A stretch of 64,000 bases of DNA from Hemiscyllium ocellatum. Lineage: Eukaryota. Position 1 is the stretch's first letter. Each line of letters opens with the position of its first letter. Positions 8,147 to 57,567 of the stretch are shown here, piece by piece. The stretch spans positions 186,001 through 250,000 of the forward strand of contig NW_026867491.1 in NCBI RefSeq assembly GCF_020745735.1, given 5' to 3'. The notes beneath the pieces are model-generated. The model searched no databases, was not told the origin of the DNA, and saw only the letters and a list, made by a program, of their open reading frames with translations. Made by a program: the position numbers and the translations under genes.

Positions 8147-8863
8147 ATGGAGAAACCTGAGGGACCCTGCCCCGTAGAGAAACCATGTAAGTGTGGTGAC
8201 TGTGGGAAAAGTTTCCATTTCCCGTCTGCCCTGGAGACTCATCGGCGCACTCACACCGGGGAGAGGCCGTTCCCCTGCACAGAGTGTGGTAAGACCTTCA
8301 GCAATTCCTCTGACCTACTGAAGCACCAACGGGTCCACACGGGGGAGAGACCCTTCAGCTGTCCCAAATGTGGGAAGGGCTTTACCCAGGCCTCCAGTCC
8401 GCTGGCCCACCGGCAGGTCCACACCGGGGAGAGGCCGTTTCTTTGCACCAAGTGTGGGAAGGCCTTCAGCAATTCCTCCGCCCTGCTGAGGCATCAGCGG
8501 GTCCACACGGGGGAGAGGCCCTTCAGCTGCCCCGAGTGCGGGAAGGGCTTTACCCACACCTCCACCTTGCTGACCCACCGGCGGGTCCACACCGGGGAGA
8601 GGCCCTTCACCTGCCCCAAGTGCGGGAAAGCCTTCAGCAATTCATCCGACAGACTGAAGCACCAGCGGGCCCACACTGGGGAGAGGCCCTTCAGCTGCCC
8701 TGAGTGTGGGAAGGGCTTTACACATTCCTCCACCCTGCTGGCCCACCAGCGGGTCCACAGTGGGAAGTGGCCATTCACCTGCTCTTTGTGTGGGAAGGGA
8801 TTCACCCGCTCTTCCCACCTGCAGAGGCACCAGCGAGTTCACATGCCATGGCAGGGGGATTGA
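8147..8863 (+). CDS. C2H2 zinc-finger protein ZNF1 (8 tandem fingers, no KRAB seen)
   Basis: Open ORF with TGERPF linkers; gccATGG Kozak at 8147; splice acceptor ttttacag|AG at 7738/7739; AATAAA at 9397 and 9413. Confidence 0.9.
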   Translation: MEKPEGPCPVEKPCKCGDCGKSFHFPSALETHRRTHTGERPFPCTECGKTFSNSSDLLKHQRVHTGERPFSCPKCGKGFTQASSPLAHRQVHTGERPFLCTKCGKAFSNSSALLRHQRVHTGERPFSCPECGKGFTHTSTLLTHRRVHTGERPFTCPKCGKAFSNSSDRLKHQRAHTGERPFSCPECGKGFTHSSTLLAHQRVHSGKWPFTCSLCGKGFTRSSHLQRHQRVHMPWQGD

Positions 8864-8879
8864 AGGAGCAATGGCAGAG

Positions 8880-9145
8880 TCCCATTATCGACTGGACCCC
8901 TGGGTTTGAATCCCGTCGTGGCAGATGGCGGAATTGGAATTCGGTCAGAAGTCCGGAGTTCCGAATCTAACGATGAAACCATTTTTTGGGGGCAGGGGCT
9001 TGAGATCCCCCATCTGATTCACTCATGTCCTTTTTAGGAAAGGAAACTGCCGTTGTGGGAAAAGATTCCCTCAGTTGTCCCAGCTGCATCCTTTACCCGG
9101 GTGGCCTACATGTGACTCCAGACCCACAGCAGTGTGGTTAACTCC
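8880..9145 (+). mobile_element. Old tRNA-headed SINE embedded in the 3' UTR; paralogous copies follow ZNF2, ZNF3 and ZNF4
   Basis: B-box-like gggtttgaatccc, then ...catctgattcactcatgtc...ggaaaggaaactgccg...ggcctacatgtgactccagacccacagca. Same sequence at ~21975-22215, ~32720-33005 and ~43185-43470, with a free copy at ~53745-54090. Confidence 0.65.
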
Positions 9146-9420
9146 CCCACCTGCAGAAATGAACAGGGAGAAACTTGCTTGGATACAGGGTCTGGGTTGA
9201 AATTGCTGAGTGAGGCAATACTTCCCACGTGTTAAGGCTGTACCAAGGATCCAATTACAAAGGGATTACTCGGTGCTGACCAATAGTAAAGAAAGTTGGG
9301 GATGGGGGGGACTGTGTACGCTTTGAACTTGAACTGTTTTTTAAAAAAATAAGCTACTTTTTCTATGTCTTTTTGCTGGGGGGGATCTGAAGCTGTAATA
9401 AAGTTGGGTCTCAATAAAGG

Positions 9421-9927
9421 TCTATGGGGTGAATTTGCATTTGCAGGTACATTCAATTTTGATCAAAAAGCACACAACCTGCAGGCAGTTGATATATGTA
9501 ATATTTGTAAATTCCTACTTTAAAAATAGAACCAGTCTGATTCAAGATTGGGATACAGATCGACTCAAACCTCACACATTTTGTTGTTGTCTGACCTGAG
9601 ATGAAACCTATTTATATAAAACCTTAAGTCATCTCGAGAATCTGACTTCAAAGACTTTCTGGGATTTACACATTAACGAACTAAAACTTGCAACCTATTC
9701 TAAAAGACAAAAGACTTAACAACAATCTAGGTTTGTTCAATATATCTGATCAGTTGCACTATACTGTGATCTTTTGCTATAAATTCTGTCTTATGATCCT
9801 GCTCCACGGCTTCCTGGTGAAGGAGCAGCGCTCCGAAAGCTAGTGCTTCCAAATAAACCACTATAACCTGATGTGTGATTTTTTTAACTTGATCCAACCC
9901 AGTCCATCTCTGGCCCCTCCACATCAT
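9421..9927 (+). mobile_element. Penelope-like element 3' region (family 2), inserted just after the ZNF1 poly(A) signal
   Basis: Matches copies at ~17965-18370(-), ~19735-20060, ~33515-34305(-), ~40600-41095 and ~44145-44800(-). Hammerhead-like CTGGTGAAGGAGCAGCGCTCCGAAAGCTA at ~9814. Confidence 0.75.
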
Positions 9928-10183
9928 TTCTAGTGAAGGCAGCCCACTTACTGCTGGGCTCAGAATGTCATTGAAAGCTTTGAGCTCCAAGAGGTTTTTG
10001 TTTTAAAGCTGCTCATTTCATTTCAACCTCCTGCACTAAGTTCCCAATGTAGTGGAGCAGTGAATAAGTTGCTGGTATCGTTAGAAATTGTAAATTTTTC
10101 ATGAGTGCAGGTACTGCGTCATTTCATCAGCATTGTAAAGGTTACTGGCAGCACTGGGAGGTGTGGGCTGCCTTCACTAGAAA

Positions 10184-13100
10184 TCCTTGCTGGTGCCTCT
10201 CTGTCTGACCTGCTGTTTGTGTATTGTTGGGTTGTGGAACTGCCCTTGGGGCTTTGAGATACCTGTGGTGCTCTGTCATTGTTAGTGAGGTTGAAGTGTA
10301 TTCCTTTGTCCGTGTGTGCTGTCGGGTTTGGTTTGCGAGCCGACATGGGCATTCTGGGTGTTTTAGGTACAGTTTGGCCAATTTTGCTTTTGTGGGTTGG
10401 CAGAGTGGCAGATCTTTTTCCACAATCTCTCCCCCCCCCTCACCCCCCCATTTCTTTTTGTTTTGCTTAGGGGAGGGACGAGAAGGGGCAATGTAGCTGG
10501 ACTCAGGGGGATTGTCGGGTGGGGGTCGCGGTATCAGACAGATAGCTCTCAGTGTCTGAGTCTGGTCCAGGAGAGGTTATTTTAGGGGCAGGGATGTTCT
10601 CCCAGTGGATCTGTGCAAGCTGAGTGGTGAGGGTAACAGAATTGTACATAGGCATGAACAGCACAGTCGGATAGCCATGGCTAGCACTCTAAGCCCGGTA
10701 ATGATAGCGATGAGGACTATCAGTCCCTGCAGTCAGGCTCTGCGCATGCCCTCTTTCACAGCGAGTGGGCAGTCCAGGGCCATCCTGTTCTGCAGAGCCA
10801 CTGTACAGATGGCAACAGCCTCCACATTCAGCTGGGCGAGTGTGTCTGCTGTGGAGTTTGTCACCTCCTGTACTATGACAGCAAGTTTGTGGGCTTCTAC
10901 CTGTAACTGTAAGGTTGCAGAGTGGGGTGACATCAGGTAGAGAGCTGCTTCGATGGCAGCGAGGGCTTGTCTGCTGGGTGGCATGGGCTTTGGGAAGGGA
11001 GGGGACTGGGAGTGATAAATGAATGGTACCGCATACCCAACATTGTAGCTCCCAGTCCAGGGCAACAGCAGCCAGGGGTAGGCTTTGTGGCCACAGATAA
11101 AATAGGTGCCATTGTCAGTTGGAGATGGAGTGTCTGGGTCCCTGTCCAGCTGGTGAGGAAGGTGGTATTCTGGGTGATCCTTTTGAGGATCTGTCGGTTT
11201 AAAATGCTGCCTTCTGCAGCGGATCAGCATGCTGTGGGAGTTAGGAGCAGGGGGTCAGTGCACCGGCTCCAGCCAGCCTCTCATCCGGGTGGCTGTGTGT
11301 GTTTCAAACAGATGGATCCCGCGGGTGGTCCGTGTGGGCTGGTGTCAGCAATGGTCAGGGCTGGGGGCTCATGGGAGGGGTTGTAGGCCGGATAAAACCA
11401 CCCTTTAAATTTGTCCAGGTGGTAACCCGCAGACCTCCAGCGGGCTGGGCTGTTGTCCCCATATTTGGTCATTGCTGGTGGTATTTTGAGTGTGGTAACT
11501 TCAGGGAACCTGTCTGGTTCCAGGCACCATTCCGCCATGTCAGAGATATTGAAGGGGATTGAGGCGAAGGAAATGCCCCCCCGTGAGAGTGGACAGGGAT
11601 CTAGTGCAGACCCAGCAGCGGGTCTGATTAAATCTCTGGGCATACCCATGGGCCATTTTGAGGAAGGTGTTGACCTGCAAATCACAGTGGGTTATGAAAT
11701 GTGCTGCCCCTGGGCCCTGTTTACCAGCAAGCCACAGTGTGATGGTCAGACAGATCAGATGGTGATGGCTGCCGCGAGCAGCTGGATCCATCCTGGGTGG
11801 TCGGAGTGGTGCCTTCCTCTGTGTGGTCCCTGTTCAGAGGTTGTGGAGCCCTCTTGCAGCGGGTGGCATGTGTCCATTCGGGCCATCCTTCCAGTTTCAC
11901 AGCAGTCCAGGTTGTCATCAGGATCAGGTACAGGCCTTTCCACCGAGGGGAGAGAGAATCTTTTTGTGGTGATTTTATCATGACATAGTCCCCGGGTCAG
12001 AACAGATGAATGGGCACTGATTGGGGTGTGGACAACGCAGCCCTGACCTGGTTGTGTGTAGCACTAATGCTCCTGCTAAGGGCCTGGACATACTCTAGTG
12101 GGGCCTCTTGTGTCAGAAGCGGGGCTGTGTCTGTGGTGAGTGTCAGGGCTCTGGTGACAGTGAGCATAGGCTGCCCCATAAGTCCTTGAAAAGGGGTGAG
12201 CACAGCTGTTCAGTTTGGCTGTGCATGTGTAGCACAGAGGGCAAGTGGCAAGGCGTCTGACCAGGTCAGTCCTGTTTTCTGGGTGGTTTTAGTCAGTGTG
12301 GTCTTCAGGATGCCACTCATCCGCTCGACCATGCCTGACGACTGGTGTTGGTAGGGGATGGGGTGTTGCTGTGGTATCCCTAGTGCCTCGCTAATGGTGG
12401 TCACAAGCCAAGCTGTGAGTGAGTCCCCCTCTCCGTCTCTATGCTACTGGGAACTCCAAATCTGGGGATGACATCCTTTAGGAAGCATTTTACTACCATA
12501 CGTGCATCATCCTTTCTTGTGGGAAATGCTTCCACCCATTTGGAGAACAAGTCTATGATGACCAGGATGTACTTGTAACCCTGTTTTTGGGACATGTTGT
12601 GAAGTCAATCTGTAAGTGGCTGAAGGTCCCTCAGGAATTGGCAGGTACTTGGCAACTGGCTTCCCTGCATTGTTCTGCCAGCAGATGAGGCACTGTGATA
12701 TCAGGGCTTGGGCAGCAGCAGTGAATCCTGTTGCATACCAGGACTGTGTTACAGTGTGTATCATGCCCCTCTTGCCCGTGTGGCCAATGCTGTGGGCTGC
12801 TAGGGCCAGTGTGTGTAGGTGGGCACTTGGGCAAATGATGCGGCCATCAGGGTGCATTAGCAGGTTGAGGGAAGGAGATTGTGTGGCCCCAATGCAGACC
12901 CAACTGTCCTTTTTCTGCTTTGGAGCAGTTTCTTGGGTAGCTTGCACAGCCTCCATGGGGTCAGGGAATACTGGGGCCTTCACTATTCCGGGGGCCTGCA
13001 GGCTGTAGATGGTGGGGTGCAGTGTGACTTCCGGGCTGCTGTGTCAGCTGAGGCATTCCCGAGGGTGACCGGGTCAGTGGCAGAGGTATGGGCACGGCAT

Positions 13101-14123
13101 TTGATCATTGCTAGGGCTGAGGGTAACGGGGAAGCTTCCAGGAGATTAGAAATCAGCGCAGCGTGTTGTAGTGGCCTCCCTGCTGACGTGATGAAGACTC
13201 TCTGTTTCCAGAATGTGCCAAAATCATGGATGACTCCGAAGGCATATCTGGAGTCAGGATAAATGTTTGCTGTGTGTCCTTTAGCAATGACACAAGCCGT
13301 AGTGAGTGCAGTTTGTGCAGATGTGCCATTTGGCAGTGCAGCTAACTCTAGGACTGAGAAAGGAGTGCAGATGGCATACCCTGCCAGTGTGCAGTGGTCT
13401 GAGGGCCTGAAGGATGAGCCATACGTATAGAGTATGAGGTCAGAGTTGTCTAGAGGTGTTTCAGAGAGGTCAGGGCATGGGACAACGACCTGCTGGACAA
13501 TGTCTAAACAGTCGTGGTCATCTGTAATGGTGGTCAGAGTGAGTGGGAGCAGGGTGGCGGGGTTCGGGGCAGGGGCACGTTGTAGGGACAGGTTGGCTTT
13601 AGGTAGTAAAGCAACCTTAGCCAATTGTCTGGGTGGCAGTGAAATGTTGCTGCTAGAAATGGAGTAATCTAGATACAATGATGCTAATCAGAAACAGTTA
13701 TCAGAGGAATGTCCTAATTCTCTACACAAAGCAACATTCTGACAGTATCGATGGATCAGGAGCTTCCATTCCTCTTCGCAGGGAGGTGCTAATGTCTCCT
13801 CTGAAGTGGTGAGTTGCTTCCATTGTCCTGTCCTGGGAGTAGTGCTTTTGCTGGTGCCTCTCTGTCTCACCTGTCCTTTGTGTGGCTTTGGTGTTGCTGG
13901 GTTGTGAAGCTGCCCTCGGGGCTTTGGGATAGCTGTGGTGCTCTGTCATTGTTAGTGGGTGCTTGAAGTGTACAGGTATTCCCTTGTCTGCGAGTGCTGT
14001 CTAGTTTCGCTTGTCAGCCTGCTTGGTCCGTGCTGATGCATTCTGGGTGTTTCGGTACAGTTTGGCCAATTTTGCTTTTGTGGGCCTATTGTGGGGTGCC
14101 AGGGTAGCAGATCTTTTCCCACA
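10184..14123 (-). mobile_element. Degenerate class I (gamma/epsilon-like) ERV: LTR-like ends, RNase H, integrase and env; gag-pro-RT deleted
   Basis: RNase H LILYTYGSSF..NIYPDSRYAFGVIHDFG..IKCRAHT..GNASAD (12983-13630). Integrase HHCC and YKYILVIIDLFSKWVEAFP..IPRFGVP (12400-12830). env CWVC and LQNRMALD (10620-11791). Polypurine tract (10425-10440) abuts a TG-starting repeat 10184-10424 that recurs at ~13847-14123. Confidence 0.9.
10620..11791 (-). pseudogene. env: Frameshifted gamma-type env of ERV-1
   Basis: NTFLKMAHGYAQRFNQTRCWVC, NGTYFICGHKAYPWL and the ISD-like VALQNRMALD are spread over different frames. Confidence 0.85.
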
Positions 14124-15397: not shown

Positions 15398-15660
15398 AGA
15401 ACGGCCTCTCCGCACTGCGACTGAGCTGATGAATCTCCAGTGCCCACGGGGAATGGAATCCCTTCCCTCAGTCCCCACATTTCCACAACTTCTCCACCGT
15501 TCTGGTGACTTTTTGGCTCTGTGTTTCCGATGAACAATTGAAAGTGTGATCACACTCAGGAAACGTGTACAGTTACTCCCTCCTGCGAATAGTGTAATGT
15601 TTCTTCAGTCTGTATAACAGGTTAAAGCGCTGCCCACAGTCCACTCACGCGGAGACTCTC
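15398..15660 (-). pseudogene. C2H2 ZNF pseudogene fragment
   Basis: The minus strand reads ..[57 protein letters not shown], with stops and a frameshift. Confidence 0.8.
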
Positions 15661-15789
15661 TCAACAAGGGGAAAAGACATACAAAGGTTGAGCAGCGAGA
15701 CAAAATGCAAAAGCAATAAAATGTCGAACACGGGGAAAAAATATTGTGGCTCTACCCCTTTTTTTTCCTGTTGGCATTTGGGCACTTAA

Positions 15790-19730: not shown

Positions 19731-21193
19731 GACCTCATACCTTTAATGCATTGTCTGAGCTGAGATGCCACCTTTTGTTATAAAGCCTTATGTTATCTTG
19801 AGAAGGTGCCTTACAGGAAGTTCTGGGATTTACATATTAATGATACCTGCAATCCATTCTAAAAGATGAAAGACTTAACAATCCAGATTTGTTCAATATA
19901 ACATTTCAGTGGCAGGGCGCAAATGTCTTTCCATAAATTCTGTGCCTTATGGTCTTATTCTCCACAACCACCTGATGAAAGAGCAGTGCTCCAAACGATG
20001 GTCCTTCCAAATAAACCTGTTGGACTATAACCCAGGTTTGTGTGATTTTTAACTTTGCCCAGGTTAGGGTGGATTGACCATGTTAAATTATGCATAATGC
20101 CCAGGGTTGTGCAGGTGAGGGGGGATTGGCCGTATTAAAATACCCATCGTGCCCAAGGAGGTGCAGGTTTGTGTGGGATAGCCATGCTAACTTACACATA
20201 GTGTCCAGGGATGTGCAAGGTAGGGGGAATTGGCCAAGGGATATGCGCCAAGTGCTGGCAAATGGGACTAAATTGATTTACAATATCTGGTCAGCATAGA
20301 CTAATTGGACCAAAGATTCTGTTACTCTGCGGCATATCTTAATGACTCTGGCTTTCTACTAACGTTTGTCACATCTCTTCTGTTCAGTTTCTCTCTGGTG
20401 CCTGTGTTAATGCCTTGATGTGTCTGGTTATTCCTCGATAACCAATCCCGATTTATCCTGAATTGACACATTTTGTTTTGCTTCCCAAAATCAGACCTGC
20501 TCACTCTCAGCAGTATCCCAGTGTTGTGAAAGATGTTAACTTTCAGGTGGAGTTATCCAAGGTCTAAGTCTTGACGTGTTTGCTGTTCTGATCCTGAATC
20601 AGCACCTTCAGGAGAATTGGTTAGAGCAGAGAGAGAGAGAGCGAGAGAGAGAACAAGAAAGAAAAGGATGTTCCTTTCAATTTTGTGGAATAACAAAAGA
20701 AAACAATGTTCCACAGAAAGTAGAATAGCTTGTTCTGAATTTCACTCAGTGCAGGGTAGATGACTTTTGTAATCTCTTTTTCCAGAGTATTTGAAGATCT
20801 GAAGACAGAAGTTTCAAAATGAACAGATGAAGGCCTTATGCCTGAAATGTTGACTCTCCTGCTCCTCGGATGCTGCCCGACCTGCTGTGCTTTTCCAGCA
20901 CCACACTTTTCAACACTGACTCTCCCCTGTCTGCGGTCTTCACTTTCACATCAATATCTGACAGTCACTCAATCGATTGGGACAGCCACGATTTTTGATT
21001 ACAATTCTGTGAGAAGGAGCAAACCTTTTTGGTTCCTATTTCAGGACATTTTCATTGTCAGTGGGACTGGATGAGAGACCCTACTGTTGCTGCGCACTGA
21101 GTGTGGAGTCTGATACAGTTATACGGCCTGGAAAGAGGAATTCCCAGCAGTGAGGGGCAGTACATGCGTTTGTTTGTGGCTGAAGCTTCGGAC

Positions 21194-21967
21194 ATGGAGA
21201 AACCGTGGAAGTGTGGTAACTGTGAGAAAGGCTTCCGTACTCCGTCTGACCTGGAGATTCATCGGCGCACCCACACCGGGGAGAGGCCGTTCTCCTGTCC
21301 CAAGTGCAGGAAGGGCTTTACCCAGGTCTCTGCCCTGCTTAGGCACCAGCGGATCCACACGGGGGAGAGGCCTTTCAGCTGCCCTGAGTGTGGGAAGGCC
21401 TTCAGCGATTCATCCTCCCTACTGACCCACCGGCGAGTCCATACGGGAGAGAGGCCCTTCAGCTGTCACGAGTGCAGGAAGGCCTTCAGCAATTCCTCAT
21501 CCCTGCTGAGGCACCAGCGGGTCCACACGGGAGAGACCCCCTTCAGCTGCCCTGAGTGTGGGAAGGCCTTCAGCCGTTCCTCCACTTTGCTGACCCACCA
21601 GCAGGTCCACACAGGGGAGAGGCCCTTCAGCTGTCCTGATTGCGGGAAGGCCTTCAGCTATTCCTACTCCCTGCTGAGGCACCAGCGGGTCCACACGGGG
21701 GAGAAGCCCTTCAGCTGCCCCGAGTGCGGGAAGGCCTTCAGCTATTCTTCCTCCCTGCTGACCCACCGGCGAGTCCATACAGGGGAGAGGCCCTTCTGCT
21801 GTCCCGAGTGCGGAAAGGCCTTCAGCGATTCCTCCTCCCTGCTGACCCATGGGCGAGTCCACACTGGGGAGAAGCCCTTCAGCTGCCCTGAGTGTGGGAA
21901 GGCCTTCACCCGCTCCTCCCACCTCCGGAGCCACCAGCGACTTCACGTGCCATCGCAGGGAGACTGA
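21194..21967 (+). CDS. C2H2 zinc-finger protein ZNF2 (9 fingers)
   Basis: Open ORF starting [10 protein letters not shown] (an in-frame ATG also at 21164); acceptor tttccag|AG at 20785/20786; AATAAA at 22423. Confidence 0.9.
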
Positions 21968-23822: not shown

Positions 23823-24049
23823 ATAATTTTAAGGTAATTGGAGGAAGGTTTCAGGGAGATGTCAGAGTAGGTTCTTACTCAGATAGTGGTGACTGTGTGA
23901 AATGCACTGTCAACAGTGGTAGTAGAGTCAGATATATTAGGGATATTTAATCGATTCTTGGATAGGTACATGAAAGTTAGTACAATAAGTGGTATGTAGG
24001 TCAGTCTGATCTTAGACTAGTATATACTGTGCTATATACCTAAGTAGAG

Positions 24050-42790: not shown

Positions 42791-43171
42791 ATGGAGAAAC
42801 CAGAGGAATCCCGCCCCGTGGAGAAACTGTGGAAGTGTGGCGACTGCAAAAAAGGCTTCCGTTTCCCGTCTGCCCTGGAGACTCATCGGCACAGCCACAC
42901 GGGGGAGAGGCCATTCCCCTGCCCTGTCTGTGGGAAGGCCTTTACCCAGGCCTCCAACCTCCAGACCCACCGGCGGGTCCATACCGGGGGGAGGCCCTTC
43001 TGCTGCCCCAAGTGTGGGAAGGCCTTCAGGAATTCCTCCCACTTGCTGACCCACCAGCGGATCCACACGGGGGAGAGGCCCTTCAGCTGCCCCGAGTGTG
43101 GGAAGGCCTTCACCCGCTCCTCCGACCTGCGGAGGCACCAGCGAGTTCATGTGCCATCACAGGGGGATTGA
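42791..43171 (+). CDS. C2H2 zinc-finger protein ZNF4 (4 fingers)
   Basis: Open ORF; gccATGG at 42791; acceptor ttttacag|AG at 42405/42406; C-terminus VPSQGD as in ZNF2; AATAAA at 43710. Confidence 0.85.
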
Positions 43172-45076: not shown

Positions 45077-45091
45077 TGGGGGCTCGTCCGG
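45077..45091 (+). promoter_or_regulatory. Primer-binding site, tRNA-Pro
   Basis: TGGGGGCTCGTCCGG equals the first 15 nt of the MLV-type tRNA-Pro PBS and lies 3 nt after the LTR-terminal CA. Confidence 0.9.
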
Positions 45092-45338
45092 CTCCACACT
45101 CCGGCTGCGGTGGGCTCGAGGAAGGACATCGGAGACGGTGCACCCTACCGAGTTCGGTAGTCCCCGATTCCTTACTCGCCGTCCCGCTTCGCGGCTTGAG
45201 CGAGTGGTATCCGGGAGGCTCAGGAGAACAAAGAGGGAGGAGACTGGCCAGTCATAAAGGGAAAAACGGGCAGGGGATCGAGTAATTTTGGTGCACTGAA
45301 GCCAGGTAGGCACAGATTTCTTCTGTTGCGTTCGGACA

Positions 45339-45620
45339 GGTTTGGTCTCTGATTGATGCGCGAAACTCAAGGATACCTTGTCTTGTCAGGTGTTGTTTAC
45401 GTACCGGAGTCTCTGCGCTCAATCGGTTACCAGGGTTTGGTCTCTGCTTGATGCACAGGACTCAAGGACACCTTGTCTTGTCAGGTGTTGTTTACGTACC
45501 GGAGTCTCTGCGCTCAATCGGTTACCAGGGTTTGGTCTCTGACTGATGCGAAACTCAAGGACACCTTGCCTTGTTTGGTGTTGTTTACGTACCGGAGACT
45601 CTGCGTTCAGTCAGTTACCA
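45339..45620 (+). repeat. Three ~95-bp tandem repeats in the proviral leader
   Basis: Units begin ggtttggtctctg at ~45339, ~45434 and ~45529. Confidence 0.9.
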
Positions 45621-45730
45621 AGGGTTGATTACCTGTTGCCGCTACCCGGTCGATCATAAGGAAATCCGGTGAGTGTGGGATATTCTTGTTTGTCGCACGG
45701 GCGGTTTATTTGCTTGTATTTATCTTCGGC

Positions 45731-47540
45731 ATGGGAAACGGGGGCGCAAGAGTGCCTAAACCGTTGCCTGATGAAGAATCCAAGGGGGTGCCGGATGATA
45801 GCCCGTTAGGACGAATGTTACGTAACTGGGGTCATGGAAAAAGAAAGGGGAAGTCTAGACGAAAAATGGTTAAATTTTGCGAAAAATGGTCACAACAACC
45901 TATTCAAGGGGGTTCTGTTTGGTGGCCCAAATTTGGATCGGACGAGGATTGGGTTTGTCAAATTTTAAATGATCATTTAAAGAATAAATATAATCCAAGA
46001 CTAAAACAGAGAGAAACAGAGAGAGAGAGAGAGAGAGAGAGACATGAGGAGAAAAGGGGATAAAGAAGTAGTGAGACTGTCCCCGCACGGGAGGTCCCGG
46101 TTGGGGAACGGACCACAGGATTTGTTGTAGCCCCATTAAACTCAAATGATATAAGACAACTGAAGTTTTTTTTTTACCAGCAGTTTGCAGTAAGACCGAC
46201 AGAGAGAGAGAGAGAGAGAGAACTGCTTGCAAAACATTTAACTCTCTGTGATTCGGGTTGAATGCACATTTGTTTGTTGGTGATTGAATGAGGAAGTTTT
46301 ATTCACTGGAACTTGAGTTCCAGGATTATTTTAAATGTGATTTTTATGAAAACTTAACATGATTTATTTTCACTATGTGAAGGACAGTTGTAGTTAGGAC
46401 TTCCATAGTTATTATATGAGACCTTGGATTCGGCTATTAGAATTTTTTTAAACTTGAAATGACAAATTATTGTAAGACAGTTATGATTATTTTATGACCT
46501 AAAGTATTGTAATTGAGAAATAGTTAGGAGTACACAAGAAAACTAATTTTGGATCTAAATTAGGATACTAAATTTGGGTGATTACAGTGGGTTTTAAAAT
46601 TTGGGAACTGTATGTATTTTATATTTTAAATATTAAATACTAAATAAATGGATATATATATATGTTTACAGTTTAGGAACAGGATTTAAAGTTAGTCAAG
46701 CATGAATTATTAAAATTGGTGTTTGAGGATATGATAAGTTTGGAACATTACAATATTTCTTAAAAAGTGCCGATAGGGGACAAGGAAATTGGGTTTGTGT
46801 GTGACCCCCTCACCAGTGGGGAGGTCGGAACATTTAAAAGGAAATGACGGTCCTGGATGAGAATCCGATAGGATTGTCAGAACAAATTAATTAATGTTTG
46901 AGGCCCAGTCTATATATGTGGGCTGAGTTAATGTCTATTTTTGAATATACTATTTACTGGGGGAGAAAGGAGACTTATATGGGGATGCTGGACAGGGAAA
47001 GTGTTAATTGAGATTTTTTTAAAAAAAACTAGTAACAGCGCCGGTATTAAGCTTGCCGGACAATTTGGCATGGGAGGGGGATGGTTAGGGGTGAGGACAA
47101 ATATCCCCTTCAGAACCCTAACTGAGACAACCATAATATAGAAAAGTGAAATAATATACTAGACATGCAAAATTTGATAATCCGAGGGATACAAACTTGC
47201 ATCCCCAAACAGCGAAAGTTAGCCAAGGTTTTCGACCTGAGGCAGGGAAAGGACGAGTCTCCCTGTCCATTCTTACACATATTAAGGGAGTCGGTTAGGA
47301 AATGTTCGGGTATAGACCCAGATGGGGAAATAGGATGACGGATGGTAAAGGTTCACTTCGTGACAAAGGCATGGCCTGATATCAGGAAGAAGTTACAGAA
47401 GATAGAGGACGGGAGCGGTAGAAATGAGTCGGAGTTGTTACAGGAGGTTCAGAAGGTATTTGTATAGAGAGGCATAATGGTGGAGGAACGGAAGGCTAAG
47501 ATACTGGTAGCAGTAGTATGGGAGGACTGTATGAAAGACA
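45731..47540 (+). pseudogene. gag: Disrupted gag (MA 45731-46010, AT-rich spacer, CA remnants ~46765-47540)
   Basis: MG myristoylation start; SPLGRML..WWPKFGSDEDWVCQ; SLYMWAELMSILNILFTG; MHR-like RQGKDESPCPFL; HFVTKAWPDIRKKLQKIE. Confidence 0.85.
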
Positions 47541-47876
47541 AAAGGAGTTGGATAAATACGGTGTTTATCTAAACCTGAATATTTATGTCTGTGTGGGCCG
47601 CCCCCCCCTGTAGGAATTTTGTGTTGGTGAAGATTTATGTGTGTCTTTGTGTGTGCAAATTTGATTGTAAAAAAAAAATAGTCTCTGTGGATGTGAGAAT
47701 TTGTGTTTGTGTATGGATTTTTTTTTATAAAAAAGGGCTTCTCAGCTAACAAGCAGTTTAACACTTTGTGGTCTGGCTTGAATTCATCTGTTTGTTAGTG
47801 CATGAATGTTTGAGTGTTTGTCACCTAGAGCGTGAGTCATGAGATATGTGGCTTCGCTGTTTCTCGTTTACTCCAC

Positions 47877-48161
47877 CAGGGATTCCTGACTCAGACCCCT
47901 CCACTCGATATCCACCTCCACAAAGTGGAACCGGGAGACTGGGTTTTGATAAAATCCTGGAAACCGAAGAAACTCCAATCACTCTGGGAGGGACCGTTTC
48001 AGGTGTTACTCACCACCGAAGTTGCCATACGAACAAAAGAAAAAGGGTGGACTCACGCCGCCAGACTAAAAGGCCCGGTGTCGCCGCCCAAAGAGGACTC
48101 TTGGTCGTGTGAGGCCGGTGATGGACTGTTGGTGGTGAAGTTAAAGAAACATCAAAAATGA
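47877..48161 (+). pseudogene. pol: Integrase C-terminal (GPF/GPY) remnant of pol
   Basis: HKVEPGDWVLIKSW..WEGPFQVLLTTEVAIRTKEKGWTH. Confidence 0.85.
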
Positions 48162-50480
48162 ACTCTCTTGGGACTCTTTTGCTACATACTGTATTATTAT
48201 TTGCCTTCCTTTTAGTGGGGAAATTGACTGGTAACTGTGATAAATGCCGCTCTAGGGTTCGGGTGTGGGACACTGAGTTAGACTTACGCGGATCTTTTGT
48301 ATCCCACTCCTCTTATGCAAATAATACTCGCTGTTATGACATATACTCACGCCAAAAGTGCTGGGAAAAAGGAAAACTATACTATCAAGTAAAAAACAGG
48401 GGATATCTCGGTCTGTCTAGGGTTAGGGCCTATCATTGCCCCTTTATGAATTACGAATGGTTGTGTATGTCAGCAGACAGTTTACAGGGACATGCTGCAT
48501 TACCGGAAACAGACAAAAATAGAACTAAAAGGGAATGTGCCAAATGCGGCGCTATAATTCAACTGGGAGATCCTAACTTCTTCTCCCTTTGCCATGATGA
48601 GGAATCACGGGAGGAATGTTGGGAGGATGGGAAATTGTATTATCAAATGTTAAATAAGGGATATATTGGATGGCCTGAGGGGAGGGTCCATGAATGTATT
48701 TGGGAAGAACACGAATGGGTCTGCATTAAAAAAAAGACAGTTGGGATAAGGCTAACAGGCCGTGCGACAAATGCTGCCAAACTGTGAAATGGGGAGACCA
48801 TGTCTTTCCGGGGTCTTTTGTGTTTCACACTAAAATAAGTGATGCCTGTTACAACCGGGAGAAAATGATACCATGTTGGGAGGATGGGGAACATTACTAC
48901 CAGGTATTCAGCCTGGGATATTACACGAGTGGAAATATAGACTGTCCACTTATGGAATAATGGCTCTGTATCAGTTTTACTGGCTCGGCAGCGGACCACT
49001 TTGACCGGGTTAAGGAAATATATCCCGGGTTAGAGAAATCTATTCCAAATTACGATGCCAGAATAGCCGCCTCAGCCAAGGTTTCCTCCCTCTATGAGGA
49101 CATTGAGAAACGGCTTACTCTTCCTGATGTTGTGAAAAATCTCTTTATTGACTTCGTCTCAAATTGCCAAAATTTTAAATGTGACGAGCTGTTGGGTTTG
49201 TGGGGGTCTGCATATGACCGAGCAATGGCCGTGGACAGGGGAGAGTTTGGATGTTCAGGAAATCCTTGAATACAATTGGACTTACTCCAAAAACAGAATT
49301 TATCAAGTCTGGAAATTGCAGAATACCCCGATGGGCCACTTCTGCATTGGGAAAAAAGGGTCCCGCCCAGTTGGTGACAGCCCCTGTCAGCGGGTCTTGA
49401 ATCTCACCACGGACACTTGGTGGCCCCGACCCTTGGGTTGGTTTCTCACCAAACAACCCCTTGGGTTGTCTATCACCCAACAAGGGGATCTTAACTGTAG
49501 GCGGTTGCATCCCACCTCTGATTCCTGGAATTGCAGTGGTTCTGGCCCTTATGCGGGAATGCCGGGAATTAGAGAGGCATGGGACGGTGTTGCCAGGGAC
49601 AGCGGAGGGGGTCCGGCTCCTGATGGTTTATTTTGGATTTGTAGGGATCTGGCGTATTCCAGGTTGCCCGAGAAATGGGGTGGCTTATGCTTCCTCGGTA
49701 TAGTCAGACCGGAGTTCTTTCCCCTCTCACGTGATCAAGGGGCTGACCTGGGGGTTAAGTTGTTCGACTCCCTGCAACGGAGGTCCGGAAAGCTAGCACG
49801 GAAGCGTAGGAGTGCTAGTCAGTGGAATGTCCACCAGTACGGAGACATCCACTTGGCCAAGTGGGGCGCAGATTGGCCACCGTCCCGTATCATTGAGTAT
49901 TATGGGCCGGCAAGTTGGGCTCAGGATGGCTCTTGGGGTTACAGAACTCCAATTTATATGCTTAATCGCATCATTCGCTTGCAGGCGGTGATGGAAATAA
50001 TCACCAACAAAACCGCCTTCGCATTGGAATTACTGGCTAGACAGCAGTCTCAAATGAGGGCTGCAATATATCAGAATCGTCTTGCTTTAGACTACCTGCT
50101 TGCCTCTGAAGGGGGTGTCTGCGGGAAGTTTAACACGACAAATTGTTGTCTGGAGATAGACGATAACTACGAGGCTGTCCTAAAAAAAAATCACCCGGGA
50201 CATCCGTAAAATAGCCCATGTACCTGTCCAGACGTGGCGACCTATAGGGGACGCTAGTTGGTGGAACACGCTTTTTGGGGGTGGCTGGTGGCGCATGGCA
50301 TTAATAATGATGGTGGGTGTCGGGGCCCTGTTCCTCGTTATTCCCTGTCTGGTCCCCTGTGCTAGAGTGTTGATCCAACGCCACATCGCCCAGATGCAAG
50401 CCATTGCCATACCCCAACATGGTACTCATGAACTTAAAGTTCTGCTGTTGAAAAGACAGAAGGACTTCCTTGAGCCGTAA
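48158..50480 (+). pseudogene. env: ERV3-like env with ~5 frameshifts and one stop; open sub-ORFs 48158-48787 and 49148-50209
   Basis: Signal peptide, CWVC, RKRR furin site, YYGPASWAQDGSWGYRTPIYMLNRIIRLQAV, ISD YQNRLALDYLLA and CX6CC. The TM helix lies after a frameshift in the A9 run at 50182-50190. Confidence 0.9.
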
Positions 50481-50531
50481 TTCAGCCGATTCTGTTACGC
50501 ATGCACATCTTAAAAAGAAAAAGGGTGGAAT

Positions 50532-51167
50532 TGTGAGAGTGAGATCTGGCTTAATAAGAATTATTAAGATGTGCATGGCATTATAATCTTTAAACGTGAG
50601 CATTATCATATTGAATAAGCTAAACTTTTTGCTGCTTTAAAACCCAGATTTCTGATGCTATTAAGCTCTCTTTGTATAACCATTTCTGTACTTAAAATAT
50701 TGTCAGCATTGAACCCTCAGAATGGGGAAGTGTTAACAGTTAATAAGAAACAAGCTACTTGGTGCAAGGGTCGGCTTTGTGTTAACAGAATGGAGAAACA
50801 AATCCAGACATCTGCTGATGTATTGTGAAACCACAGGACAAGAATAAAATGTGAGATGTCTGTTGACCTGCTTTGAACCTGCTGCAGAACCACAGAGCAG
50901 AAGAACGACCCTGTGTTTTTCTATGTGGTCAGGATTTGAGACAATGAGAGCATAACGGAAAATTACTGCTAGTTTAGAATGTGAACCCCGTGACTCTTTG
51001 GAGTCAAAGAGGGGAGGGACTTGTGCTGTATATAATGAGAGACCTTGTAATGCTCAGTACGCCTTTCTTTGGGAAGGCGTCCAATTCTGCAGAATTTGTT
51101 AATAAAATCTTTGTTCTCTTGAATTTGTCCAGAGCGATTATTTAGAAGTGAATTTTCATTTCTAACA
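50532..51167 (+). mobile_element. Complete 3' LTR (636 bp)
   Basis: Follows the PPT; TGTGAGA...TCTAACA ends; TATATAA at ~51029; AATAAA at 51101. Confidence 0.9.
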
Positions 51168-53122: not shown

Positions 53123-55037
53123 GGAATACATAACATGGCTACAACACTATGATATAACTAGAAATAATTATAAATCAAATTTATACAGCCGTAAATAAAT
53201 ACATATTGCACAGTAACACTATGATATATCCCTGTCCAGTATGACTTTTACTGTTCAGTTAAACGAAACTTGAAAGGGCTCAGAAAATGTTTACAAAGAT
53301 GTTGCCAGGGTTTGAGCTACAGGGAGTGGCTAAATAAGCTGGGGCTGTTTTCCCTGGAGCATCGGAGGCTGAGGGGTGACCTTATTGAGGTTTATAAAAT
53401 AATGAGGGGCATGGATAGGGTGAATAGACAAGGTCTTTTCCCTGGGGTGGGAGAGTCCCGAACTGGAGGTGAGAGGGGAAAAGACATAAAAAGGACCTAA
53501 GGGGCAACTTTGTCAGTCAGAGGGTAGTGCGTGTATGGAATGAGCTGCCAGAGGAAGTGGTGGAGGCTGGGACAATTGCAACATTTGAAAGGCATCTGGA
53601 TGGGAATATGAATGGGAAGGGTTTGGAGGGACGTGCTGGCACATCGGACTAGATCAATTTTGGCTATGTGCTCGGCATGCACCAGTTGCACATAGGGTCT
53701 CTTTGTGTGCTATACATCTGTATGACTCTCAATGCTGTCCAGGCGAGTCAGTGATGTTATAACAACAACACTGGACCAGCAATCCAGAGGCCCTAGGCAA
53801 ATAATCTGGGCTCATGGGTCCAAATACCAGTAAAAACAAACATTGGGGAATTTAAATTTATTTTTTTAAAATCTGAATTGAAAACTAGTCTCAGTCATTG
53901 AGAGAATGAAACTTTTCTGAAAACCCATTTGATTCAATAACGCTGTTCAGGGAAGGAAACCCGCTAGCATTAACTTGGTGCTGCCTGCATATGATGGCTC
54001 ACGTGCTTGACTTTTAAAATGCCCCCTAAAGTCTGGCAATCCTCTTGTCTGAAGGGCAGTTAGGGACGAAAACATTGTTGGCCTTGCCAAAAAAAAAACT
54101 CCTTCATGGAATGTGGGCTATCTCGAATGTGACTTCACATCTGCGAATGGGTCACATCAGAACATCCAGACAAATAAGCACCAAAATGTCTGGTGCTGCA
54201 AGAGTACAGCAGGTCAGCCAGCATCGGAGGAGCAGGAGGTTTGATGTTTTGGGCATAACCCCTTGATTAGGAATGTGGGGTGGGCCCAAAGGGACAGAGA
54301 TAAATAGGAGGGAGGTGGGACTGGGGGAAGGGAGCTGAGAATGCTATGGGTAGATGAAAGCGAGGGAAGGAGGTGACAGGTCAGAGAGGAGGGTGGAGCA
54401 GATAGATGGGAAGGCAGATGGACAGGTGGGACAGTTCAAAAGAGCAGTCCCAAGTTCGAGGGTTGTGTCTGGGATTGGGCAGCTGGGGGGGGGGTAAATG
54501 AGGAAACTGGTGAAATCAATATTGATCCTGTATGGTTGGAGGGTCCCAATGCAGAGGCATTCTTCCTCCAGGTATCAGGTGGCCTAGGACCCTGCAACCA
54601 CACGGCATCAACATCGATTTCACCAGTTTCCTCACATTCCCTCCCCCCTCCCACCCCAGCTCCAACCCTCCAACTCAGCACCACCCTCTTGAACTGTCCC
54701 ACCTGTCCATCTTCCTTCCCACCAATCTGCTCCACCCTGTAGCCATCACCTCCCCCCCCAACCTGCATCTACCTTACCCCCAGCCCCACTCCCACCTTCC
54801 TATTTATCTCTCAGCACCCTTTCCACACCCCCAAACCCCCACCCCCCCCCCCTCCCCCTCCCCCTCCGCAATTCCTGATGAAGGACACGAGAGAGACACA
54901 GCGATCTCGACCAATGCATCCAGCATATGCACCTTTCCTGAGTTCACCTCCTTTCACTTCACTTCCTACAAACCAACAGTTTAATCCCAAAATGAGAAAA
55001 GAAATGGAATAGGAGGGGTGAGAAGAGAGGGTGCTGT

Positions 55038-55502
55038 ACTCACAGAGGTTGGTGCAGTCTGGGGTAACACTCAATCTTCATTCAGAGAGAGAGAGAGAGA
55101 GCAGCAGGAGCTCATGATCCAACTTCCGCATTCAGACACTGACGGGATGCTCTGATTGGTAGGAGGACCAGCCTTTCTTCCGGTCCTCCAAGGCTCCCCA
55201 TTGGTCATGCCTCCCCGTGTCAAGGTTAAGGGAGGGGCACGTGAGGGTAGTGGAGGAGAGAGGTCGCGTGGGCGTCACAAAGACCAGTGCCGCCGCGTGA
55301 CGCACGGCGCGGTGGACCAATGGGAAAGGCTGGAACGCCGCACGGGCGGGCGGTCCGTCAAATCAACGCGCGGCCTCTGTGACGACAGCGGTTCCTCGAT
55401 TCACGTGACCGGTTGCTCCTGCACATTCGCCATTGCGGGGGGGTCAAGGGGAGCTGATGTTGTGTTGGTCTGGAGGGTCCCTGTGTCCAGGAAGAGGTGA
55501 GT
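55038..55502. promoter_or_regulatory. Bidirectional CpG promoter: minus-strand type B first exon (donor at 55043) and plus-strand ZNF5 first exon (donor GTGAGT at 55497)
   Basis: 55038-55207 is the reverse complement of the type B module. 55210-55500 has CCAAT, CRE-like GTGACGCA and the E-box TCACGTGA (55401). Confidence 0.65.
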
Positions 55503-55686
55503 GTGGCTCAGTCAATGAGCATCAGTCAGACCCTGCTGGAGCATGGGGGGAGGTGGGATATTAGGTACAGCAAGAGTTAAAGAGTGTGTGGGATGGAGAT
55601 TTACAGCTTTTTTAGGTAATAAGTCCCTTTCTGGACAATACTGGGGGATGGGTAATATCAGAGACAGCAGAGTGAGAATTGAAGAA

Positions 55687-55721
<35 letters not shown>

Positions 55722-55789
55722 GGGGGGGTGGAGATTTGCAACACTTCTTAAAGTTAAAAATCACACAACTCTAGGTTATAGGAGAAAGT

Positions 55790-56048
55790 GAGGTCTGCAG
55801 ATGCTGGAGATCAGAGCTGAAAATGTGTTGCTGGAAAAGCTCAGCAGGTCAGGCAGCATCCAAGGAACAGGCGATTCGACGTTTCGGGCATGAGCCCTTC
55901 TTCAGGAATGAGGAAAGTGTCCTCATTCTTTCCTCATTCCTGATGAAGGGCTTTTGCCCGAAACGTCGATTTTTTTTTTCCCTACTCCTCGGATGCTGCC
56001 TGACCTGCTGTGCTTTTCCAGCACCACTCTGATCTCCAGCATCTGCTG
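55790..56048. mobile_element. Inverted pair of Penelope terminal repeats with two intact hammerhead cores, in the ZNF5 intron
   Basis: Plus strand CTGATGA-A-GGGC tttt GCCC-GAAACGTC at 55940-55967. Minus strand attc-CTGAAGA-A-GGGC tcat GCCC-GAAACGTC-gaat at ~55874-55909. Confidence 0.75.
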
Positions 56049-56556
56049 TCTTTTTCGCCTGGAGGTTTTACTAGCTACCTGATGAAGGTGCAGAGCTCTG
56101 AAAGTTCAAACTTCTAAACAAATCTAATGGACTACAACCTGGTGATGTGTGATTTTTTTTTAAACTTTGTACACCCCAGCCCAACACTGGCATCTGTATA
56201 TTGTAACTTGATTGTTTTAGGGAAGTTCTACAGAAACTAGAATGATCTGTTCTGAATTCCTGTCATGTGCAGGCAGCAATGACTTTTGTAATCCCCTTTT
56301 TCACAGGATATGAGAAGAGCAGCTTTGCAGGTAGAGCTCCCCAATGGAGTACCATGTGAAGGTCTGATAGAGCCCCTTGATTCGTGGGACAGGAGAGACG
56401 TCCCTCTTTCAGTCCAGAAGGGGAAAATTCTTTGAACGTTTTTGTCTGCTTCAGTAGGCTCTTAAAGTATCGTCTTCACCTGAACCACAGGGGCACGTGC
56501 CTGAGCCAGTTTGCCCACTGTGGGGAAAGGAAGTCTCAGGAGGCATTCCGCACGCC

Positions 56557-57567
56557 ATGGAGAAACCGTGGAAGTGTGGGGATTGCGGGAAAGGATTCCG
56601 CTCCCCCTCCGTGCTGGAGATCCACTGCCGTGTCCACACTGGGGAGAGGCCGTTCAGCTGCTCCGAGTGCGGGAAGGGCTTCACCCAATCGTCTATCCTG
56701 CTGACCCACCAGCGTTTCCACACCGGGGAGCGGCCCTTCACCTGCCCCGTCTGCGGCAAGTGCTTCACCCAGTCGTCCACCCTGCTGACCCACCAGCGGG
56801 TCCACACCAGGGAGCGGCCCTTCACCTGCTCCATCTGCGGCAAGGGCTTCACCGACTCCTCCCACCTGCTGACCCACCAGCGGGTCCACACCGGGGAGAG
56901 GCCGTTCAGCTGCTCGGTCTGCGGCAAGAGCTTTACCCAGTTGTCCAACCTGCTGCGGCACCAGCGGCTCCACACCGGGGAGCGGCCCTTCACTTGCTGC
57001 GTCTGTGGCAAGGGCTTCACCGACTCCTCCCACCTGCTGACCCACCAGCGGGTCCACACCGGGGAGAGTCCATTCAGCTGCTCGGTCTGCGGCAAGAGCT
57101 TTACCCAGTCGTCCAACCTGCTGCAGCACCAGCAGGTCCACACCGGGGAGTGGCCCTTCACCTGCTCTGTCTGCGGCAAGGGCTTCGCCCGCTCGTCCGA
57201 CCTGCTAACCCACCAGCGGGTCCACACGGGGGAGCGGCCGTTCAGCTGCTCGGTCTGCGGCAAGAGCTTCACCCGCTCGTCCACCCTGCTGCGGCACCAG
57301 CGGCTTCACACCGGGGAGCGTCCCTTCACCTGCTCCGTCTGCGGCAAGAGCTTCTCTCACTCGTCCACCCTGCTGCGGCACCAGCGGCTTCACACCGGGG
57401 AGCGGCCCTTCACCTGCTCCGTCTGCGGCAAGGGCTTCACCCAGTCGTCCCACCTGTTCTCACACCAGCAGGTCCACACCGGGGAGCGGCCCTTCACCTG
57501 CCCCGTCTGCGGGAGGGGCTTCGCTTCCTCTCAGCACCTGCTGCGGCACCAGCGGGGGCACAAGTGA
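56557..57567 (+). CDS. C2H2 zinc-finger protein ZNF5 (12 fingers; more divergent subfamily)
   Basis: Open ORF; gccATGG at 56557; acceptor tttttcacag|G at 56306/56307; CSVCGK-type fingers. Confidence 0.92.

What the first reader, a model, noticed from the sequence alone, without database searches (positions are those of the whole stretch)
8147..57567. Rapidly diversifying cluster of KRAB-less ZNFs with a conserved atypical first finger, interleaved with ERVs
Seen: the five genes differ in finger number (8, 9, 10, 4, 12) and in recognition-helix residues. All begin MEKP..[W/C]KCG[D/N]CxKxFxxPSxLExH, with a Pro in the helix. No effector domain is visible. Knowledge: tetrapod KRAB-ZNF clusters and some fish ZNF families evolve this way and repress transposons. 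Inference: a chondrichthyan TE-recognition system in which finger 1 may be a protein-interaction module standing in for KRAB. The tRNA-Pro PBS found here is a classic ZNF target in mammals.
Basis: partly seen in the sequence, partly recalled or inferred. Interest (0 to 1): 0.7.

Follow-up and report, generated by a model that had tools for sequence, protein, structure and literature searches.

The report
Shark finger-only zinc-finger gene cluster
Five neighbouring shark genes encode fast-diversifying DNA-reading zinc-finger proteins with no silencing domain but a shared, distinctive first finger, which may be how sharks mark jumping DNA, although neither the targets nor a partner protein have been shown.

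Summary
Confirmed: five intact C2H2-array ORFs (8, 9, 10, 4, 12 fingers) and three defective ERVs; a sixth, decayed copy is new. The inferred upstream exons add no in-frame coding: 4-9 in-frame stops separate acceptor and ATG, and probable RNA contigs of relatives show that splice. So no KRAB- or FiNZ-type exon. Base-contact positions -1/3/6 diversify (dN/dS 1.6-2.2 over all pairs, 0.8-2.2 by pairing; framework 0.2-0.45). The finger-1 signature (WKCGDC, Pro+1, Glu+5, Arg+8) recurs in 21 fingers of 10 Heterodontus/Carcharodon models; a frog control family shows no such head finger. It lies on the face that CLAMP's first finger uses for protein binding. Against: Pro+1 merely starts the helix and occurs in DNA-bound Zfp568; finger 1 varies at -1/3; last fingers are also set apart; it is the family's second finger behind a decayed one; nothing links the arrays to the PBS. 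Verdict: a new variant of a known kind (lineage-expanded poly-zinc-finger family). TE targeting about 0.5 and finger 1 as KRAB stand-in about 0.25, both inferred. The scan holds one loosely similar note on another genome.

The parts
4533..4774 (+). Type-A promoter / non-coding exon 1 of Z1 (CpG-rich; NRF1-like motif at 4517, label recalled; 27-codon upstream ORF from 4562); donor GTAGGA after 4774
   Evidence: donor seen as joint 4774>20787 in 2 of 4 probable RNA runs of relatives
7739..8146 (+). Z1 exon-2 untranslated leader: acceptor at 7738|7739, 6 in-frame stops, relic of an upstream finger in its last 70 nt
8147..8863 (+). Z1: 238 aa, 8 C2H2 fingers
10187..14123 (-). ERV-B: old, broken LTR element (LTR-like ends 74% alike; RNase H and integrase pieces, env-like piece)
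15399..15662 (-). Decayed sixth family member: relic upstream finger plus finger 1 with a stop codon
15679..16100 (+). Type-B promoter / candidate non-coding exon 1 of Z2; donor GTGAGT after 16100 (inferred; no joint among those shown)
20786..21193 (+). Z2 exon-2 leader, acceptor at 20785|20786, 5 in-frame stops
21194..21967 (+). Z2: 257 aa, 9 fingers
29539..29780 (+). Type-A promoter / exon 1 of Z3; ATG-to-donor part 99.1% identical to that of Z1
31413..31819 (+). Z3 exon-2 leader, 9 in-frame stops
31820..32704 (+). Z3: 294 aa, 10 fingers (finger 4 lacks the last His)
36567..37008 (+). Type-B promoter / candidate exon 1 of Z4 (inferred)
42406..42790 (+). Z4 exon-2 leader, 4 in-frame stops
42791..43171 (+). 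Z4: 126 aa, 4 fingers
44930..51167 (+). ERV-A: young, internally deleted provirus. LTRs 44930-45073 and 51022-51167 (98.6% alike), 5-nt target duplication, gag-like start, integrase tail, env-like ORFs in pieces, no RT/RNase H ORF seen
45077..45094 (+). tRNA-Pro-like primer binding site, 15 of 18 bases
   Evidence: its first nine bases equal those given for PBS-Pro in PMC10602909
51657..52010 (+). Orphan type-B promoter/exon copy
54958..55207 (-). Type-B promoter/exon copy pointing away from Z5
55250..55496 (+). CpG island / candidate non-coding exon 1 of Z5; donor GTGAGT after 55496 (inferred)
56307..56556 (+). Z5 exon-2 leader (candidate acceptor), 5 in-frame stops
56557..57567 (+). Z5: 336 aa, 12 fingers; older paralog outside the Z1-Z4 duplication unit
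60520..63200 (+). ERV-C: remnant related to ERV-A (81-84% over two stretches); ends approximate

Best explanation
This is a tandem piece of a large shark family of two-exon, finger-only C2H2 genes that evolves by duplication and loss. Each gene has a non-coding first exon, a leader with upstream ORFs and one coding stretch made of a head finger plus 3-11 ordinary fingers (shown for sequence anatomy; the splice is seen in relatives for one promoter type only). The ordinary fingers read DNA through positions -1/3/6 (established knowledge of C2H2 arrays). They are re-shuffled and pushed to new specificities (shown as dN/dS above 1 in most pairings), most likely to follow changing repeat or TE sequences (inferred from KRAB-ZFP and FiNZ-ZNF precedent, about 0.5). 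The head finger folds normally but keeps a family-wide surface away from the bases (Trp-Lys, Gly-Asp, Pro+1, Glu+5, Arg+8). It most likely provides a shared contact, to a protein or to another family member (inferred, about 0.45); that the partner is a co-repressor is a further inference (about 0.25). The ERVs are later insertions tolerated in a repeat-rich cluster, not demonstrated targets.
For: Intact ORFs with framework dN/dS 0.23-0.45. dN/dS at -1/3/6: 1.60 (bootstrap 1.11-2.35) at kappa 1 and 2.19 (1.58-3.10) at kappa 2.4 over all pairs of 38 fingers, above 1 within each of the 5 genes. -1/3/6 is the fastest of 680 column triples. In-frame stops and the spliced joint exclude an effector exon through the main acceptor. 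Head signature in shark relatives: Glu+5 21 of 21 and Pro+1 20 of 21, against 1 and 8 of 183 other fingers in the same proteins, and both together in 4 of 3501 fingers of 140 non-family proteins. In 40 frog-type control proteins, first fingers (84) resemble internal ones (626): summed divergence 1.07 against 4.43 in the shark set. CLAMP's first finger binds MSL2 through +1, +5, +8, +9 (10.1101/2022.02.16.480628, section read). Chondrichthyan genomes hold 475-3586 ZNF ORFs, and ZNF number tracks retroelement number (PMC10547256), while expanded KRAB-ZNFs are not reported there (PMC11603059, PMC8455134 passages).
Against: No binding, repression or partner data. The selection signal depends on pairing: 0.79-1.02 when pairs are matched on all sites, 1.30 (p 0.20) to 1.70 (p 0.008) when matched on framework residues only, and 1.07-1.38 when position 2 is included in that matching; GC3 is 0.76-0.93. 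Finger 1 is only modestly more conserved in bulk (72% aa identity against 68, 66 and 64% for fingers 2, 3 and last), and its -1/3/6 positions vary about as fast as in other fingers (dN/dS 0.9-2.2, few non-independent pairs). The last fingers of Z1-Z4 also form their own clade (100/97), so terminal position alone sets a finger apart. Pro+1 occurs in 2 fingers of the solved Zfp568 array. A small KRAB-motif control (16 array starts) gave a similar summed divergence, 4.1, though from higher variability and not from a consensus. 9 of the 10 relatives are from one species.
Confidence: 0.55

Rival explanations
1. Finger 1 is an ordinary, structurally constrained terminal finger. It differs only because end repeats escape the unequal crossing-over that reshuffles the array, and it caps the array or grips the backbone without any partner protein.
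For: First and last fingers each form a clade while internal fingers mix between genes. Normal fold, rmsd 1.1-1.5 A to the best DNA-binding matches. Pro+1 in Zfp568. It is historically the second finger behind a finger that decayed. Framework dN/dS of finger 1 (0.19-0.51) is like that of the others.
Against: The same non-base-facing residues are kept in three shark lineages and after loss of the upstream finger. Frog-type arrays have no distinct head finger. Its -1/3/6 residues (Tyr or Phe; Ala, Glu, Gln, Lys; Thr or Ile) are unlike those of the downstream fingers.
Confidence: 0.25
2. The proteins bind DNA, but their main targets are not TEs (promoters, satellites, other family members), or they act by plain occlusion without recruiting anything.
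For: No effector domain. KZNFs also bind non-TE sequences (PMC10547256 Discussion). The crude code scan found no PBS or clear ERV preference.
Against: Diversifying contact residues and birth-and-death clustering are the pattern of families shown to repress TEs (PMC10547256).
Confidence: 0.15
3. The cluster is mostly passive, decaying duplication debris; fast change at -1/3/6 reflects relaxed constraint plus biased synonymous sites.
For: One pseudogene; 4 of 43 fingers damaged; high GC3; ratio near 1 in one pairing; an earlier unchecked scan note on another genome reads a similar cluster this way.
Against: All five ORFs are open although the flanking non-coding DNA differs by 18-19%. Framework dN/dS is far below 1. 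Synonymous divergence of the positionally anchored first fingers (0.21-0.26) is not lower than non-coding divergence (0.18), so dS does not look suppressed.
Confidence: 0.08
4. A hidden coding exon supplies an effector domain through another splice acceptor close to the ATG.
For: KZNF and FiNZ genes put the effector on an upstream exon (PMC10547256). Only 15 of about 4170 joints were shown. In-phase AG sites exist after the last stop, the best with 9 of 14 pyrimidines in Z5.
Against: The observed joint uses the far acceptor. The 66 nt before the ATG change evenly at all three codon positions (29, 33, 25 of 132). 5 of 10 shark models begin 7-16 residues before their first finger.
Confidence: 0.07

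Closest known systems
Tetrapod KRAB-ZFP clusters (PMC13709654: abstract and section 3.3; PMC10602909: passages)
   Same: Tandem clusters, finger array on one exon, fast turnover of contact residues, ERVs inside the cluster, a PBS-Pro element of the kind bound by ZFP809 and ZNF506.
   Different: No KRAB domain or coding upstream exon; a fixed head finger instead; no evidence of TRIM28 recruitment or TE binding.
Cyprinid FiNZ-ZNFs (PMC10547256: passages, Discussion, supplement rows)
   Same: Fish lineage-specific expansion, two-exon layout, positive selection at base-contact positions.
   Different: FiNZ is a 28-aa acidic domain coded by the upstream exon; here the upstream exon cannot add in-frame residues, and the family is found in sharks.
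Actinopterygian KRAB-like ZNFs with TRIM33 (PMC11603059: passages)
   Same: Proposed TE silencing in fish without TRIM28.
   Different: They keep a KRAB-like N-terminal domain; these proteins have at most 15 residues before finger 1.
CLAMP N-terminal C2H2 finger (10.1101/2022.02.16.480628: abstract and one results section)
   Same: Normal C2H2 fold, atypical base-contact residues, conserved helix positions +1, +5, +8 and +9.
   Different: CLAMP is a single conserved fly protein with a proven partner; here the finger is linked directly to a variable array in a large family, and no partner is known.
RefSeq shark models such as 'zinc finger protein 850-like', '271-like', '91-like' (XP_067869942.1, XP_067910341.1, XP_041031536.1)
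   Same: Same family and head finger.
   Different: Automatic names borrowed from mammalian genes; several models fuse neighbouring genes; no description of the family was found.

Membership tests
Kruppel-type tandem C2H2 protein | C-x2-C-x12-H-x3-H fingers at 28-aa spacing with TGERP/TGEKP-type linkers | tested here: met
   finger 1 models as a normal finger
KRAB-ZFP | N-terminal KRAB domain, usually on an upstream exon | tested here: not met
   no KRAB among the Pfam rows shown; at most 15 aa before finger 1; 4-9 in-frame stops after the acceptor; joint seen in relatives
KRAB-ZFP | Clustered paralogs with diversifying -1/3/6 residues | tested here: met
   strength depends on pairing
KRAB-ZFP | TRIM28 recruitment and H3K9me3 deposition | not testable with these tools
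   needs interaction and chromatin assays
KRAB-ZFP / FiNZ-ZNF (works like) | Sequence-specific binding of TEs, e.g. PBS-Pro | tested here: inconclusive
   recalled recognition code: PBS tile in the top 5% for 1 of 24 four-finger runs, about chance
FiNZ-ZNF | 28-aa acidic FiNZ domain coded by an upstream exon | tested here: not met
   upstream exons cannot be in frame; no FiNZ profile was available for a direct search
FiNZ-ZNF | Restricted to cyprinids | tested here: not met
   10 of 10 named relatives with the head finger are sharks
Protein-binding N-terminal C2H2 finger (CLAMP type) | Atypical base-contact residues, conserved +1/+5/+8/+9 face | tested here: met
   (resemblance only; no homology claimed)
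Protein-binding N-terminal C2H2 finger (CLAMP type) | A demonstrated partner | not testable with these tools
CGx-Phi dimerising C2H2 finger (PMC12774644, abstract) | Single isolated finger with an extra adjacent beta-strand, Diptera-specific | tested here: not met
   finger 1 is joined to the array by a standard linker; the model shows no extra strand
LTR provirus with PBS-Pro (ERV-A) | Paired LTRs, target-site duplication, PBS, polypurine tract | tested here: met
LTR provirus with PBS-Pro (ERV-A) | Complete gag-pol-env | tested here: not met
   only an integrase tail hit Pfam; no RT/RNase H ORF of 70 aa or more; env-like part in several ORFs

The most novel reading that the evidence does not exclude
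Sharks evolved their own TE-silencing zinc-finger system, independent of KRAB and FiNZ, in which the effector is itself a zinc finger. A formerly second finger was repurposed as a family-wide docking module for a co-repressor, so that hundreds to thousands of finger-only genes can each aim the same silencing machinery at a new repeat.
Probability: 0.25. Interest if true: 0.8.

Novelty: new variant of a known kind. Interest (0 to 1): 0.5.

Why it matters
Cartilaginous fishes have 475-3586 poly-zinc-finger ORFs per genome (8 genomes seen in the PMC10547256 supplement) but no reported KRAB-ZNF expansion, and how such effector-less families could act is open. This locus gives a concrete, testable handle: a 25-residue head finger with four to six family-specific surface residues that can be tethered, mutated and pulled down. 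If it recruits a repressor, it would be a third independent vertebrate solution to adaptable TE recognition and would bear on the state before KRAB arose. If not, it is one more lineage-specific ZNF expansion.

Tried and rejected
No whole genome is held, so family size and ERV background could not be measured. None of the five proteins is in the protein collection by exact sequence. ESM Atlas gave only generic C2H2 clusters. No RNA holder was listed on record: 14 runs are guessed RNA with shares of 0.06-0.11, so expression of these five genes is not shown and depth was not used. A metagenome scan gave 34 loci, none of the family (1 finger with Pro+1 and Glu+5, without the Trp-Lys head). Rfam and ARAGORN found nothing. 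The single-sequence fold of Z4 left finger 1 at low confidence; the alignment-based fold resolved it, and Foldseek gave no match at E 0.001, only generic fingers. Complex prediction of a finger-1 dimer was not available: no verdict. Protein-level homology of the whole leader to the upstream finger was not significant (best p 0.04 of 25 comparisons); only the 10 residues before EKP (p 0.0004-0.001) and the DNA match to the pseudogene (above all 300 shuffles for Z2, Z3, Z4; not for Z1, Z5) were. Recognition-code scan for PBS/ERV preference: null. 'Pro in the helix means no DNA binding' rejected. A shared exon 1 spliced from the Z1 promoter to Z2 was considered and not adopted: the joint comes from other organisms' paralogs, with 30 letters on its short side. 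A coding role for the leader before the ATG was rejected. Paper searches that found no description of this family; the library lacks most subscription papers, and 3 supplement files of PMC10547256 were not searched.
Full report
Observation. Four of the 43 fingers are damaged. All five first fingers read [W/C]KCG[D/N]C..F..PS.LE.H. Pro+1 and Glu+5 occur in 5 of 5 first fingers and 0 of 38 others. Of the 38 other fingerprints 33 are distinct, and no two genes share more than one consecutive fingerprint. Pfam rows shown are zinc-finger-type only.

Gene anatomy. Z1-Z4 share a duplicated unit of about 2 kb at about 77% identity with gaps and 18-19% substitutions in non-coding parts. Z5 is older. 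Each gene has a splice acceptor 250-408 nt before the ATG, and 4-9 in-frame stops lie between acceptor and ATG, the nearest 78-102 nt upstream. Two kinds of CpG-containing promoter-exon precede the genes. Type A (4533-4774, 29539-29780) ends in a GTAGGA donor. Type B (copies ending at 16100, 37008, 52010 and, on the minus strand, 55044) ends in GTGAGT. Contigs of 4 runs guessed to be RNA, from three other organisms, were laid on 4000-23500 at 82% likeness. A joint from 4774 to 20787 appeared in 2 of the 4 runs (two studies; one contig each, 30 letters on the short side). It shows that in relatives a type-A exon splices straight to the family acceptor. It does not show expression of these five genes, and only 15 of about 4170 joints were listed. 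The type-B and Z5 exons are inferred from sequence alone. The 66 nt before the ATG differ evenly at the three codon positions (29, 33, 25 of 132), as expected for untranslated DNA.

The family. A profile of the five heads was searched against 1.84 billion representatives; the best 150 are biased to long, often fused gene models. Ten of the 150 carry the head signature, and all 10 are shark RefSeq models: 9 Heterodontus francisci on 4 contigs and 1 Carcharodon carcharias. They hold 21 fingers preceded by W-K, W-E or C-K. Of these 21 have Glu+5, 20 Pro+1 and 16 Tyr-1, against 1, 8 and 3 of the 183 other fingers in the same proteins; both marks together occur in 4 of 3501 fingers of the other 140 proteins. 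Position +8 is Arg in 18 of 21 head fingers but Gln in 102 of 112 downstream fingers. The window's organism is inferred from these relatives to be a shark; it was not identified.

Finger 1 was not always first. In four relatives an intact finger (…CSVCGRGFSHSSGLS.HK..H) precedes it; in most others only its tail (LERH.DT.TMEKP) remains. The [14 protein letters not shown] heads of Z1, Z3 and Z4 match that tail in register (p 0.0004-0.001). A decayed sixth copy on the minus strand (15399-15662) keeps the relic finger and a stop-broken finger 1. Homology of the longer leader was not significant at protein level and was above all shuffles at DNA level for 3 of 5 genes. So the family lost or is losing its upstream finger but kept this one, which argues that the head finger is selected for itself.

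Selection. Counts are pairwise between existing fingers. Over all pairs of the 38 non-first fingers, dN/dS at -1/3/6 is 1.60 (bootstrap 1.11-2.35) with kappa 1 and 2.19 (1.58-3.10) with kappa 2.4, the value that fits the non-coding transition/transversion counts. With position 2 added it is 1.16 and 1.54. The framework gives 0.29 and 0.38, and each gene alone gives a ratio above 1 at -1/3/6. Disjoint pairs give 0.79-1.02 when matched on all sites (biased down), 1.72-2.23 when matched on framework codons (biased up), and 1.30 (p 0.20) to 1.70 (p 0.008) when matched on framework residues only. -1/3/6 ranks first among 680 triples of variable columns. High GC3 (0.76-0.93) could depress dS, but synonymous divergence of the first fingers (0.21-0.26) is not below non-coding divergence (0.18). 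I read this as moderate evidence of diversifying selection, not proof; finger shuffling and gene conversion violate the assumptions.

What finger 1 is. It models as a normal beta-beta-alpha finger with the Pro as first helix residue, and mouse Zfp568, solved on DNA, has Pro+1 in two fingers. The Pro alone therefore says nothing against DNA binding. In bulk it is only slightly more conserved than other positions (72% against 64-68% aa identity), and its -1/3/6 codons change about as fast as elsewhere (few, non-independent pairs). First fingers form one clade (100/100) and last fingers of Z1-Z4 another (100/97), while internal fingers mix across genes; part of its distinctness is thus an edge effect. 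What remains special is which residues are fixed: the hairpin Trp-Lys and Gly-Asp, +1, +5 and +8, all away from the bases. The first finger of Drosophila CLAMP binds MSL2 with shifts at +4, +5, +6, +8, +9 and +12 and loses binding on mutation of +1 and +8 (10.1101/2022.02.16.480628; abstract and one results section read). As a control, 40 frog-type proteins from the same search (6 checked by name, all frogs) have first fingers like their internal ones (summed divergence 1.07 against 4.43). A 12-protein KRAB-motif set gave 4.1, but through more variable first fingers at small n.

The ERVs. ERV-A (44930-51167) has short LTRs 98.6% alike, a 5-nt target duplication, a polypurine tract and a PBS 3 nt behind the 5' LTR that matches tRNA-Pro in 15 of 18 bases. 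It is young and defective. ERV-B (10187-14123, minus strand) is older and broken; ERV-C (about 60520-63200) is a remnant related to A. None lies inside the duplicated ZNF unit, so they were not co-duplicated here. ZFP809 and ZNF506 do bind PBS-Pro in mammals (PMC10602909 passages), but a crude scan with a recalled code put the PBS in the top 5% for 1 of 24 finger runs, which is chance. Mammalian KZFP clusters are themselves enriched in ERVs (PMC13709654, abstract and section 3.3), so adjacency needs no targeting. Without a genome no enrichment could be tested.

Comparison with what is known. It works like KRAB-ZFP and FiNZ-ZNF clusters in layout and evolution but fails membership of both, because the defining upstream domain is absent. 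Wells et al. count 475-3586 ZNF ORFs in the 8 chondrichthyan genomes I looked up (supplement rows), note dozens of uncharacterised families (Discussion), and do not mention sharks in the main text. The whale shark paper lists KRAB among families lost in cartilaginous fishes (PMC8455134 passages), and PMC11603059 reports only PRDM9 in whale shark (passages). A shark and ray tandem-gene survey has no mention of zinc fingers in its main text (10.1101/2025.06.08.657570). Searches found no description of this family or its head finger; the library lacks most subscription journals.

Verdict. That lineage-specific ZNF expansions track TEs is known; an effector-less vertebrate family with a fixed head finger appears undescribed. 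Novelty: new variant of a known kind. Interest 0.5; the bold reading (finger 1 as KRAB substitute) has probability about 0.25 and would merit 0.8.

Noticed in passing
window 15399-15662 (-): Decayed sixth family member, head to head with the type-B promoter at 15679-16100; suggests divergent gene pairs sharing a promoter region.
   Followed up: partly
window 4562-4774 and 29568-29780: Type-A exon 1 copies are 99.1% identical (2 differences in 213 nt) while the rest of the units differ by 18%: recent gene conversion or strong constraint. Both hold the same 27-codon upstream ORF.
   Followed up: partly
window 7779-7855, 20826-20907, 31453-31534, 42446-42554 (+); 4598-4625, 29604-29631 (-): A short dispersed repeat (19 hits in the window) with a hammerhead-like CTGATGA...GAAA core (Penelope-like; label recalled) sits sense in the exon-2 leader of Z1-Z4, where the core reads CAGATGA, and antisense in type-A exon 1. 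The spliced Z1 leader folds at -230 kcal/mol against -205 +/- 8 for 30 mononucleotide shuffles, with 44 cross-exon pairs.
   Followed up: partly
window 44930-45073 and 51022-51167: Unusually short LTRs (about 145 nt) bounded by a polypurine tract and a 5-nt target duplication.
   Followed up: partly
window 45339-45626: Three tandem copies of a 95-nt unit in the ERV-A leader.
   Followed up: no
window 51657-52010 (+) and 54958-55207 (-): Two type-B promoter/exon copies without an assigned gene; one points away from the Z5 CpG island.
   Followed up: no
window 16464-16643, 37139-37290, 54390-54738, 55797-56046: Palindromic pairs of the short dispersed repeat (inverted self-matches, 75-98% identity).
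   Followed up: no
proteins P0001, P0005, P0024, P0030, P0035, P0042, P0088: RefSeq shark models that appear to fuse two to four neighbouring family genes through unrelated sequence, so public annotation of this family is unreliable.
   Followed up: partly
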